Positions 32,772 through 34,142 of a DNA stretch of 64,000 nucleotides are shown in pieces. The stretch is from positions 62,001-126,000 of the forward strand of contig NIVC01002112.1 of NCBI GenBank assembly GCA_002269645.1, read 5' to 3'. The notes beneath the pieces were generated by a model, which ran no database searches, was not told the DNA's origin, and saw only the letters and a program-made list of their open reading frames with translations. Made by a program: the position numbers and the translations under genes. Position 1 is the first letter of the stretch. Every line of letters starts with the position of its first letter. The DNA is from Macrostomum lignano (Eukaryota).

Positions 32772-33440
32772 ATGGGCAACGCACTGTCGAAACAGGCGCC
32801 CCAGCCTCAGCAGCTATATGACTGCCCGATATGTTTAACTGATGACTTGGCTGTCAAGCCACCGACTATTTGCATCAATGGACATAAAGTTTGCGGACAA
32901 TGTTTAAGTGATTCACACTATATTCAGCCCTGGCAGAGTTGTCCCCTCTGTAGAGATAGTTTGCGACAATGTGCCTATTGTTATTCTTGGCGCACGTTTC
33001 AATATTGTAACCACCAACATTTTATTTGCATGCACTGTTTGAAGCAAACCGCTAGTAGGGGCATTATAGGATGCCCCTTATGTAACAGTATGCCCCGCGA
33101 AAACACTTTTAAGAAATGGTGTCGGATTATACCTGACCCAGCGCGTTGTTTATCCGTTTACACTATGCACACCTTAACCGCTATGAGTATCGAACGGCGG
33201 CTGGAGTTTTGGCCTGTACCTCGCTTCGTTCAGCGGTCGCGACGACAGCTACTATTATATGCTCATAGAAATCAAGGATTTTTGCGTCATATGTCACCCT
33301 TGGAGATTGAGCGACGGTTGCGGCAGTTTTTGCATGACCACGAATCATTTCACTGGACGCTACACGTATACTGCCACGCGCTTAAACGATTAGTGCTCTC
33401 ACGTAGCTATTTTATTTGGCTTTTTAGGTCTCACCGATAG
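32772..33440 (+). CDS. Accessory protein A: tandem double C3HC4 RING, N-terminal myristoylation consensus, 222 aa
   Basis: MGNALSK start; CPIC-x12-C-x3-H-x2-C-x2-C-x12-CPLC, then RDSLRQ, then CAYC-x8-C-x3-H-x2-C-x2-C-x11-CPLC. Confidence 0.8.
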   Translation: MGNALSKQAPQPQQLYDCPICLTDDLAVKPPTICINGHKVCGQCLSDSHYIQPWQSCPLCRDSLRQCAYCYSWRTFQYCNHQHFICMHCLKQTASRGIIGCPLCNSMPRENTFKKWCRIIPDPARCLSVYTMHTLTAMSIERRLEFWPVPRFVQRSRRQLLLYAHRNQGFLRHMSPLEIERRLRQFLHDHESFHWTLHVYCHALKRLVLSRSYFIWLFRSHR

Positions 33441-33510
33441 AACATATGCTTGTTACGTATCTTGAATAATCCTCAATCGTTCTAACTATACCTATACCTA
33501 TCGCCCACAG

Positions 33511-34142
33511 ATGACCGAGATGGATACCTGCCCCTGCTGCCTCGAGGCACGGGAGCCGATGCTCCCGACTTGTGAATGGGGCACCAGGTGTGCTTCCCCT
33601 GCGACGAGCGGGCGCGAGAAATTGGCGACGTGACGATCCTTACCGCCTGCCCCGTCTGTCGCAGACCGCGGGTCCAATGTGCCCTTTGCGGCGACCAGCC
33701 CAATGTACGACTCTGTTCAAATCGGCATTGGGTGTGTTTCAGCTGTCTTCAGCGGTACGGTGCACGAGACATCATGACGTGCACCGTGTGCCTGGCTCCG
33801 CTGTCCAACACAGCATCCGTACTACTGGCACCGATGCTCGCCGTACCGGAGCTAACGCTGGCGGAGCCGGATGAGCTAACCCTGGAACAGCTGGCCGTCG
33901 CCGTACGAACGTGGCCATGGCCGCTTCAGCATCAGGCCGACTGGCGGTGGTTACTAGACATCGCCAGGACTATGGTGCGTACAGCAGAACCGCTTACGAC
34001 CATAGAGGCCTATCTGCTTTTGCTGGAGCGGACCGAGGATCCGCGATTCACTAAGTTTCAGTCGCTGTACTGGGCAGTGGCATCCCTGGTGGCGCGAACC
34101 ACGCATCAGGTGAGCAGCCTGCTCAGGACAAGCTTCGGCTGA
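33511..34142 (+). CDS. Accessory protein B: tandem double RING paralog of A; first RING split by a 1-nt frameshift in the G run 33578-33581
   Basis: ATG 33511 frame gives MTEMDTCPCCLEAREPMLPTCEW; the 33576 frame continues GHQVCFPC...CPVC RRPRVQ CALC...CSNRHWVCFSC...CTVC. One extra G restores a 210-aa ORF. Confidence 0.75.

What the first reader, a model, noticed from the sequence alone, without database searches (positions are those of the whole stretch)
32772..34142. Two paralogous tandem double-RING accessory genes carried inside the LTR element
Seen: between pol and the 3' LTR lie two sense ORFs, each with two C3HC4 RING patterns joined by an identical 6-residue linker (CPLC-RDSLRQ-CAYC and CPVC-RRPRVQ-CALC) and followed by unrelated helical C-termini. 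Base composition differs from the A/C-rich polyprotein (A looks T-rich, B GC-rich). Established: large DNA viruses use RING E3 ligases (herpes ICP0, baculovirus IE2/PE38, poxvirus p28) against host defence; gypsy elements rarely carry such genes. Inference: a captured and duplicated E3-ligase cassette countering silencing or innate restriction, or ubiquitinating cargo for ESCRT budding.
Basis: partly seen in the sequence, partly recalled or inferred. Interest (0 to 1): 0.85.

Follow-up and report, generated by a model that had tools for sequence, protein, structure and literature searches.

The report
Double-RING accessory genes in flatworm errantiviruses
A family of virus-like jumping genes in a flatworm carries up to three related extra genes, each with two RING zinc fingers and kept by selection, which likely tag host proteins with ubiquitin to help the elements get past host control.

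Summary
Real, with corrections. Genes A and B lie between integrase and the 3' LTR of an 11.7-kb GAG-ENV-POL Ty3/gypsy element of the flatworm Macrostomum lignano (species from a UniRef label). B is frameshifted in this copy, so the listed ORF lacks its first CxxC. The linkers match in length only, and the C-termini are homologous, not unrelated.

The cassette (2-3 whole-gene paralogs) recurs in five lineages (RT 80-99.5% identical), with dN/dS 0.07-0.38. It is nearly always tied to element DNA, and no host donor was found. RING1 ends in P-x-C-R in 26 of 26 proteins; RING2 never has the arginine. The helical domain has no recognised fold. CAG sits just before B starts, suggesting spliced mRNAs (not shown).

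Against an essential role: two abundant young subfamilies lost B and truncated or broke A. Best reading: trans-acting E3-ligase accessory proteins aimed at host factors (0.45); activity untested. The element family looks already catalogued (PMC13524379), but our searches found no report of these genes. The scan earlier noted a loosely RING-like accessory gene in a Euglena element (not tested here).

The parts
23575..24438 (+). 5' LTR, 864 bp, TG...CA; flanked by a CTAAG duplication inside a 16-bp satellite
   Evidence: 864 of 864 identical to the 3' LTR; the duplication is 4 bp in 7 of the 10 other copies scored
23912..23921 (+). Splice-donor-like site in the LTR (G|GTAAGC); a GTAAGC site is present in 4 of 5 LTR types
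   Evidence: one contig of run X5 leaves the stretch exactly at 23914|GT and rejoins within the LTR. No joint to gene A or B was seen
24441..24452 (+). Primer-binding site TGGTGATCTCGC
   Evidence: the same 12-mer is listed for Mlig_errantivirus_2 in PMC13524379 supplementary file 1
25155..32651 (+). Single 2498-aa polyprotein: Gag (CCHC) - acidic linker - env-like region between two transmembrane segments - protease - RT - RNase H - integrase
   Evidence: Pfam; TM at aa 620 and 1216; furin-like RRRR at aa 948
29016..29069 (+). Late-domain-like motifs (YPSI, PTAP, PPNY) in the tail after the env transmembrane segment
   Evidence: PTAP in 6 of 7 copies compared, YPxI in 7 of 7; function inferred
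32667..32731 (+). Conserved non-coding element between the pol stop and gene A (three short predicted hairpins; contains a conserved ACAG)
   Evidence: conserved in 9 of 9 copies from five lineages; 0 of 12 pairs show compensatory change, so the structure is not shown
32772..33440 (+). Gene A, 222 aa: MGNALSK myristoylation-like start, RING1 (aa 18-60), 6-aa linker, RING2 (aa 67-104), helical domain
   Evidence: (pLDDT 87, pTM 0.79)
33480..33510 (+). Splice-acceptor-like site (branch CTAAC, CACAG directly before the ATG of B)
   Evidence: AG within 2 nt of the ATG in 9 of 12 B-type starts shown (the window counted once, L002 once); splicing not shown
33511..34142 (+). Gene B, paralog of A (two RINGs + helical domain); frameshifted near 33577 in this copy, leaving the 188-aa ATG ORF 33576-34142
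   Evidence: unbroken 210-aa frame in L002-L004; model of L002's B: pLDDT 91.8, pTM 0.83
34370..34381 (+). Polypurine tract
34385..35248 (+). 3' LTR

Best explanation
Genes A and B are selected accessory genes of a GAG-ENV-POL retrotransposon clade, and they likely encode RING E3 ubiquitin ligases that act in trans on host proteins, probably restriction, silencing or stress factors. Proposed working: short mRNAs spliced from a donor in the 5' LTR to acceptors in front of the genes (inferred from conserved signals) give 200-220-aa proteins. RING1 would bind the E2-ubiquitin conjugate. RING2 would be structural, like the silent partner in RING heterodimers. The fast-changing helical domain would pick the substrate, so paralogs A, B, B1 and B2 would widen the target range. 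Because the product would be diffusible, copies without the cassette could ride on those that keep it. Shown: the genes, their family-wide linkage to the element, purifying selection, the RING1/RING2 asymmetry, and loss in young subfamilies. Predicted: the RING fold. Inferred: splicing, E3 activity, host targets, action in trans.
For: Cassette in the same position in five lineages: F1 (window), F1b (C1154, C240), F2 (C391; three genes), F3 (C717), F4 (C583); RT 80-99.5% identical to the window. dN/dS 0.07-0.38 for whole genes wherever computable, in both RINGs and C-termini, p <= 1e-5 in 7 of 7 pairs tested. RING1: all eight zinc ligands in 25 of 26 proteins, P-x-C-R in 26 of 26, I/V before the second Cys in 22 of 26; RING2 has that Arg in 0 of 27. 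Best PDB profile hits are E3 RINGs (RING1B, TRIM5, TRIM21, SIAH1; E 2e-5 to 2e-4); Sina_RING matches 20 of 22 members at E <= 0.1. Confident compact models; RING1 superposes on the SIAH1 RING (rmsd 2.0, 53 columns) and TRIM69 RING (Z 5.5, rmsd 2.8, 60 aligned). The cassette changes far faster than pol (F1 vs F1b: RT 99.5%, A 73%, B 60% identical; dS 0.40 vs 1.9 and 1.5), and F3 and F4 carry different B paralogs on 99% identical RT: module swapping, as expected in a host conflict. Mobilisation in trans looks possible in this family: pol-less copies C525 and C4582 have near-identical LTRs and 4-bp duplications. Precedent: planarian Burro elements carry ubiquitin- and apoptosis-related domains (PMC6431247, section read).
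Against: No E3 activity, substrate, protein product or spliced joint to A or B was shown; contigs of 3 putative RNA runs gave no LTR-to-cassette joint at the predicted sites (contigs drop rare forms). Among 40 scored DNA matches, 25 copies lack B and have A cut to about 124 or 144 aa, against 11 with the long cassette. About 21 further copies show a stop in RING2; the 5 examined have a 70-aa A with RING1 ligands lost and no B. Sampled copies of these types have LTRs 99-100% identical, so the cassette is not needed in cis for recent spread. No pair gave whole-gene dN/dS above 1, so an arms race is not shown. Pfam scores for the window's proteins are under the cut-offs. RING folds also serve non-ligase roles (arenavirus Z; recalled).
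Confidence: 0.45

Rival explanations
1. Budding or assembly factor: a membrane-anchored RING protein (like arenavirus Z) or a ligase that ubiquitinates the element's own Env tail or Gag for ESCRT-driven release.
For: MG-N-A-x-S-K/R myristoylation-like start in 5 of 9 A proteins; late-domain-like YPxI/PTAP motifs in the env tail; RING2 superposes on Lassa Z (Z 4.9, rmsd 2.0, 47 aligned), no better than on cellular RINGs. The short subfamily keeps the MG start and both RINGs: 35 synonymous vs 14 non-synonymous codon differences summed over 6 non-independent copies.
Against: The motif is absent from 4 of 9 A and 13 of 13 B proteins; A and B have no PTAP or PPxY in 22 of 22; the polyprotein has its own late-domain-like motifs; several divergent paralogs are hard to explain for one structural job.
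Confidence: 0.17
2. Regulator of the element's own RNA (export or splicing control), like CERV of C. elegans Cer1 or retroviral Rev, with the conserved element after the pol stop as its binding site.
For: Splice-like signals; a 65-nt element conserved in 9 of 9 copies; CERV is a Cys-rich product of a spliced mRNA needed for genomic RNA export (PMC10309623, passages).
Against: The E2-facing motif of RING1 is invariant; young copies without an intact gene are abundant; the hairpins show no covariation.
Confidence: 0.13
3. Decoy rather than active ligase: the double RING sequesters host E2s or pairs with host RING ligases (TRIM-like, PRC1-like) and blocks them.
For: The same conserved RING1 surface; the tandem RINGs resemble a fused RING dimer in outline.
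Against: The arginine after the last Cys, which serves catalysis in many RING E3s (recalled), is kept in 26 of 26. The RING1B-BMI1 fusion tops the Foldseek list but with rmsd 11.7, so the geometry differs.
Confidence: 0.15
4. Passenger capture of host genes with no benefit to the element.
For: Loss or decay in two abundant subfamilies; B of this lineage has host-like GC content (61%, as the neighbouring LRR gene).
Against: Strong purifying selection while synonymous sites approached saturation; repeated duplication; no host donor found.
Confidence: 0.03

Closest known systems
GAG-ENV-POL errantiviruses of Platyhelminthes, notably Mlig_errantivirus_2 (PMC13524379; part 1 of one results section, passages and supplement rows seen)
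   Same: Gene order GAG-ENV-POL; same species label; LTR about 863 bp and the same PBS 12-mer. Very likely this family.
   Different: The paper's main text has 0 hits for RING, zinc finger, ubiquitin, small ORF or splicing. The listed element's LTR spacing (9727 bp) fits the short-cassette type, not the window's 10,810 bp.
Planarian Burro/GYPSM1 giant gypsy elements (PMC6431247, section 7 read)
   Same: Flatworm gypsy elements with env in frame between gag and pol and extra domains linked to ubiquitination and apoptosis (BIR, MATH/TRAF, SUMO-like, BCL2-like, an AIR1 'RING Zn-finger' motif).
   Different: There the domains lie inside or upstream of a 4,900-5,100-aa polyprotein, and the env is described as F-like. 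Here separate 200-aa double-RING + helical genes lie after integrase. Homology to Burro proteins was not tested.
SIAH/Sina RING ligases (PF21362)
   Same: C-x3-H spacing and P-x-C-R end; Sina_RING is the commonest Pfam match (20 of 22 at E <= 0.1).
   Different: The window's scores are under the cut-off; two RINGs in tandem; an all-helical C-terminal domain in the models instead of SIAH's zinc fingers and beta-sandwich (recalled).
Viral RING E3 ligases (herpesvirus ICP0, baculovirus PE38/IE2, poxvirus p28) and arenavirus Z (roles recalled)
   Same: RING proteins carried by a selfish replicator; single-RING structural matches to ICP0 and Z.
   Different: Matches cover one RING only (0 Foldseek hits at E <= 0.001 in PDB or BFVD); none of the listed matches has the double RING plus this helical domain.
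Accessory ORFs of LTR retrotransposons: Cer1 CERV (PMC10309623, passages), MDG1-group sORF1/sORF2 (PMC11952523, abstract and section 7), bdelloid ORF3s (PMC5408684, passages)
   Same: Extra genes beyond gag-pol-env, some from spliced mRNAs, kept by selection.
   Different: None of the passages seen describes a RING protein (0 hits for RING or ubiquitin in PMC5408684); their functions are RNA export, cell fusion, esterase or exonuclease.

Membership tests
RING-HC (C3HC4) domain | Eight zinc ligands in C3HC4 order and spacing | tested here: met
   RING1: 7 ligands in 26 of 26, one in 25 of 26; RING2: each ligand in at least 25 of 26
RING-HC (C3HC4) domain | RING fold | tested here: met
   Predicted model only: pLDDT 91.8; rmsd 2.0 over 53 columns to the SIAH1 RING; second RING Z 4.9, rmsd 3.0, 52 aligned to the RNF213 RING
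RING-HC (C3HC4) domain | Pfam gathering score | tested here: not met
   Window A: zf-RING_2 22.2 vs 27.3 bits, Sina_RING 18.8 vs 29.3; L002 B: 21.6 vs 29.3. Bit scores of the other members were not shown
RING E3 ubiquitin ligases | E2-facing hydrophobic residues and P-x-C-R end | tested here: met
   RING1: I/V 22 of 26, L after the second Cys 21 of 26, P and R 26 of 26; not met by RING2 (R 0 of 27, P 17 of 27). The meaning of these positions is recalled knowledge
RING E3 ubiquitin ligases | E2-dependent ubiquitin transfer | not testable with these tools
   Needs a bench assay
SIAH/Sina family | Zinc fingers plus TRAF-like beta-sandwich substrate domain after the RING | tested here: not met
   C-terminal domain is all-helical in both models; no Sina substrate-domain family among the matches of 22 members
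Arenavirus Z-like matrix proteins | N-myristoylation motif | tested here: inconclusive
   Motif in 5 of 9 A and 0 of 13 B proteins; modification not testable here
Arenavirus Z-like matrix proteins | Single RING with its own late domains | tested here: not met
   Two RINGs; no PTAP or PPxY in 22 of 22
Ty3/gypsy (Metaviridae) GAG-ENV-POL errantivirus | LTRs, PBS, PPT, target duplication; PR-RT-RH-IN order | tested here: met
Ty3/gypsy (Metaviridae) GAG-ENV-POL errantivirus | Env-like glycoprotein between gag and pol | tested here: met
   About 600-aa region between two hydrophobic segments with a furin-like site, conserved across lineages at 61-96% identity, dN/dS 0.05-0.09 where computable
Ty3/gypsy (Metaviridae) GAG-ENV-POL errantivirus | HSV/gB-type env homology | tested here: inconclusive
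   phmmer against PDB gave nothing under E 0.6; the label ENV_HSV comes from the paper's table; env was not folded here

The most novel reading that the evidence does not exclude
An animal retrotransposon clade encodes its own expanding family of E3 ligases, of a new double-RING + helical-domain architecture, that destroy host anti-transposon factors (for example PIWI-pathway or chromatin proteins). The ligases act as a shared good that cassette-less cheater subfamilies exploit: a Vif/ICP0-like strategy in an errantivirus of a tractable stem-cell model.
Probability: 0.25. Interest if true: 0.88.

Novelty: new variant of a known kind. Interest (0 to 1): 0.62.

Why it matters
How animal LTR retrotransposons counter host silencing is largely open, and few transposon-encoded counter-defence proteins are known in animals (recalled). 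Here is a small, well-folded, selected protein family with a ligase-like RING and an unrecognised helical domain, in a worm with transgenesis and reporter tools (PMC12801592, passages). Its substrates would name the host factors that matter most to the element. Natural subfamilies with and without the cassette provide a built-in comparison. Only 5 of 1.84 billion representative proteins match at E <= 1e-10, so the family is rare and uncharacterised.

Tried and rejected
Complex prediction of gene A (aa 12-222) with a host UBE2D-like E2 (L144; identified): no answer, score 0.05, controls not folded; not evidence either way.

Sequencing runs: no RNA holder listed on record. Contigs of three runs guessed to be RNA and one other cover the whole element; none joins the LTR donor to the predicted acceptors of A or B. 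Contigs cannot show expression level or absence.

Word-index protein searches found nothing: single A (93 candidates) and the alignment at E <= 1e-6 (1978 candidates).

Fold of the helical domain: no Foldseek hit at E <= 0.001 in PDB or BFVD; best VIA-align Z 5.7 to unrelated helical bundles, within the common range; no usable Atlas hit for aa 98-210; whole-protein Atlas hits under 0.9, RING clusters or unnamed viral clusters. The domain was not folded alone, so 'new fold' is not claimed.

Host donor: 38 contigs with matches were examined by local BLAST. All but one (C356, a decayed lone fragment) had LTR or gag/pol sequence of this clade beside the RING gene. Searches score only the best candidates and match exon by exon, so a spliced, distant donor is not excluded.

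Fused RING heterodimer like RING1B-BMI1: rejected as a geometric match (rmsd 11.7). Covariation in the element after pol: 0 of 12 pairs. Env against PDB by sequence: nothing. The viral-contig scan could not be run with the alignment, so that collection is untested.

Literature: searches (listings and abstract starts seen) gave no report of these genes. Term searches for RING/ubiquitin in the main texts of PMC13524379, PMC12801592, PMC5408684 and PMC6338049 gave 0 relevant hits. PMC13269885 passages added nothing. (anti-silencing proteins) was seen as a listing only. Not seen: supplements of PMC12801592, the earlier M. lignano LTR survey it cites, Repbase/Dfam entries, subscription journals; any of these could annotate the ORFs.

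Full report
1. WHAT IS THERE. The window holds an intact-looking LTR element at 23575-35248: LTRs of 864 bp, identical at 864 of 864 bases, a PBS at 24441, a polypurine tract at 34370 and a CTAAG duplication inside a 16-bp satellite. One 2498-aa frame encodes Gag, an env-like region between two hydrophobic segments, protease, RT, RNase H and integrase. This GAG-ENV-POL order is described for flatworm, nematode and bryozoan errantiviruses in PMC13524379. That paper's table lists a Macrostomum lignano element with an LTR of about 863 bp and the same PBS 12-mer. A UniRef gene model holding gene B nearly letter for letter is labelled M. lignano. So the element family is very likely catalogued already.

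2. THE OBSERVATION. Gene A (32772-33440) is as described, with RING patterns at aa 18-60 and 67-104; 4 of 20,000 shuffles gave one such pattern. Gene B really starts at 33511 and is frameshifted near 33577 in this copy, so the listed 188-aa ORF lacks its first CxxC. Copies L002-L004, L006 and L007 have an unbroken 210-aa frame, and contigs from 4 of 4 runs differ from the window at this place, so the break is probably an assembly error or private to this copy. The linkers share length, not sequence. The C-termini are homologous: W-P in 26 of 27 rows, hhalign E 2e-6 with probability 89%. A and B are whole-gene paralogs (25% over 195 aa).

3. A FAMILY TRAIT. A protein search of G000 gave 150 matches (150 of 198 candidates scored). 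Whole elements from five lineages carry the cassette in the same place: F1 (window, C282, C1639), F1b (C1154, C240), F2 (C391, three genes), F3 (C717) and F4 (C583), with RT 80-99.5% identical to the window. Of 38 contigs examined, all but one decayed lone fragment (C356) have LTR or gag/pol sequence of this clade next to the RING gene. No host donor was seen, though a spliced or very distant one could be missed. In the tree, A-type genes form one clade (99/97) that includes the Logan protein P0002; B-type genes fall into four groups, with P0003 and P0004 unresolved among them on long branches. The A/B duplication therefore looks older than these lineages. Outside this genome the family is rare: 5 of 1.84 billion representatives match at E <= 1e-10, one of them the M. 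lignano gene model.

4. SELECTION AND TURNOVER. Pairwise Nei-Gojobori counts on natural copies give dN/dS of 0.07-0.28 for A (13 pairs with a ratio; 3 more were saturated or had no synonymous change) and 0.14-0.38 for B (8 pairs), pairs being those above 50% identity. Seven chosen pairs gave p <= 1e-5; pairs are not independent. The cassette is much more diverged than pol: F1 vs F1b has RT dS 0.40 and 99.5% identity, but A dS 1.9 (73%) and B dS 1.5 (60%). F3 and F4 share 99% RT but carry different B paralogs. This points to module swapping between lineages. No whole gene shows dN/dS above 1.

5. EVIDENCE AGAINST AN ESSENTIAL ROLE. Among 40 scored DNA matches, 11 have the long cassette and 25 lack B; the 16 of these translated mostly have A cut to 124 or 144 aa, keeping both RINGs but not the helical domain. 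About 21 more matches show a stop in RING2; the five examined have a 70-aa A with lost RING1 ligands, no B, and gag-env-pol upstream. Sampled LTR pairs are young (C102 855 of 857; C29 1067 of 1075). So elements spread recently without a full cassette. Counts are lower bounds of the search and are inflated by duplicated genome regions: host E2 genes mostly appear in two to four copies. Pol-less copies C525 and C4582 have near-identical LTRs and 4-bp duplications, consistent with mobilisation in trans, although deletion after insertion is also possible.

6. ANATOMY OF THE PROTEINS. AlphaFold2 models are confident and compact (B: pLDDT 91.8, pTM 0.83; A: 87.1, 0.79): two RINGs followed by a four-to-six-helix domain. 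RING1 ends in P-x-C-R in 26 of 26 proteins and has I/V before its second Cys in 22 of 26. RING2 keeps its zinc ligands but has that arginine in 0 of 27. By established knowledge of RING E3s (recalled), these positions face the E2-ubiquitin conjugate, so RING1 looks catalytic and RING2 structural. Sequence and structure searches match one RING at a time: RING1B, TRIM5, TRIM21, SIAH1, TRIM69, RNF213, ICP0, arenavirus Z. Nothing convincing matches the helical domain. An MG-N-A-x-S-K/R start suggests myristoylation in 5 of 9 A proteins, all of the F1/F1b group.

7. EXPRESSION (inferred). An AG lies within 2 nt of the ATG in 9 of 12 B-type starts, and a GTAAGC donor-like site lies in 4 of 5 LTR types. 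One contig from a run guessed to be RNA leaves the stretch exactly at that donor, but rejoins inside the LTR. A 65-nt element between the pol stop and A is conserved in 9 of 9 copies and contains a conserved ACAG; its predicted hairpins show no compensatory change. Spliced messages for A and B are likely but were not seen.

8. MECHANISM. Best reading (0.45): diffusible E3 ligases in which RING1 activates the E2, RING2 braces it, and the variable helical domain selects host substrates. Paralogs would widen the range, and cassette-less subfamilies would ride along. Rivals: budding or assembly factor (0.17; the myristoylation-like start and late-domain-like motifs in the env tail speak for it, their absence from most paralogs against), decoy of host E2s or ligases (0.15), regulator of the element's own RNA like CERV (0.13), passenger (0.03). 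I put the chance that the proteins have E3 activity at all at about 0.7.

9. NOVELTY. Accessory genes in LTR elements are known (CERV, sORF1/2, bdelloid ORF3s), and planarian Burro elements already carry ubiquitin- and apoptosis-related domains, including a motif annotated as a RING zinc finger. The idea of a flatworm gypsy element meddling with ubiquitination is therefore not new. This protein family, its double-RING + helical architecture, its duplication and swapping, and its loss in young subfamilies were not found in seven literature searches or in the main texts of the two papers on these elements. Unseen supplements and repeat databases could hold an annotation. Verdict: new variant of a known kind, interest 0.62.

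Noticed in passing
window 29016-29069: Late-domain-like motifs (YPxI, PTAP, PPxY) sit in the tail after the env transmembrane segment rather than in Gag; YPxI in 7 of 7 and PTAP in 6 of 7 copies compared. Suggests the Env tail recruits ESCRT in this single-polyprotein design.
   Followed up: partly
G000 C2121:1-70000, C87:225000-280000, C1130:1-50000, C3033:5000-14000 (L109-L117, L120-L131): Piles of nested elements of this clade, all in one orientation, many inserted in or beside each other's LTRs. Could be a target preference for own LTRs or piRNA-cluster-like traps; some of these contigs may be duplicated copies of one locus.
   Followed up: partly
window 32667-32731: 65-nt non-coding element after the pol stop, conserved across lineages whose synonymous sites are saturated; begins with a TGTAG like the LTR start. 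Role unknown: splice signal, RNA export or translation element.
   Followed up: partly
G000 C525, C2869, C4582 (L071-L072, L181, L174): Pol-less derivatives (4.7-6.9 kb) that keep both RING genes between near-identical LTRs.
   Followed up: partly
window 36091-37722 (- strand): Intronless-looking 543-aa leucine-rich-repeat host ORF (SHOC2-like by recall) ending about 840 bp from the 3' LTR.
   Followed up: no
window 20472-22644, 35139-36000, 38088-38737, 41399-45795: Many minisatellite arrays (periods 12, 13, 16, 24, 30, 33, 39 bp); the element inserted into the 16-bp array.
   Followed up: no
L170-L171 (G000 C1405:258840-263999) and L122-L123 (C87:246726-252689): A second, distant GAG-ENV-POL-type family (gag about 30%, env about 26%, RT about 41% identical) inserted among these elements; not checked for accessory genes.
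   Followed up: no
L010:874-1533 and L013:445-1005: Natural recombinant copies with two cassettes in tandem (A'B' then AB) joined at the conserved element after pol.
   Followed up: partly
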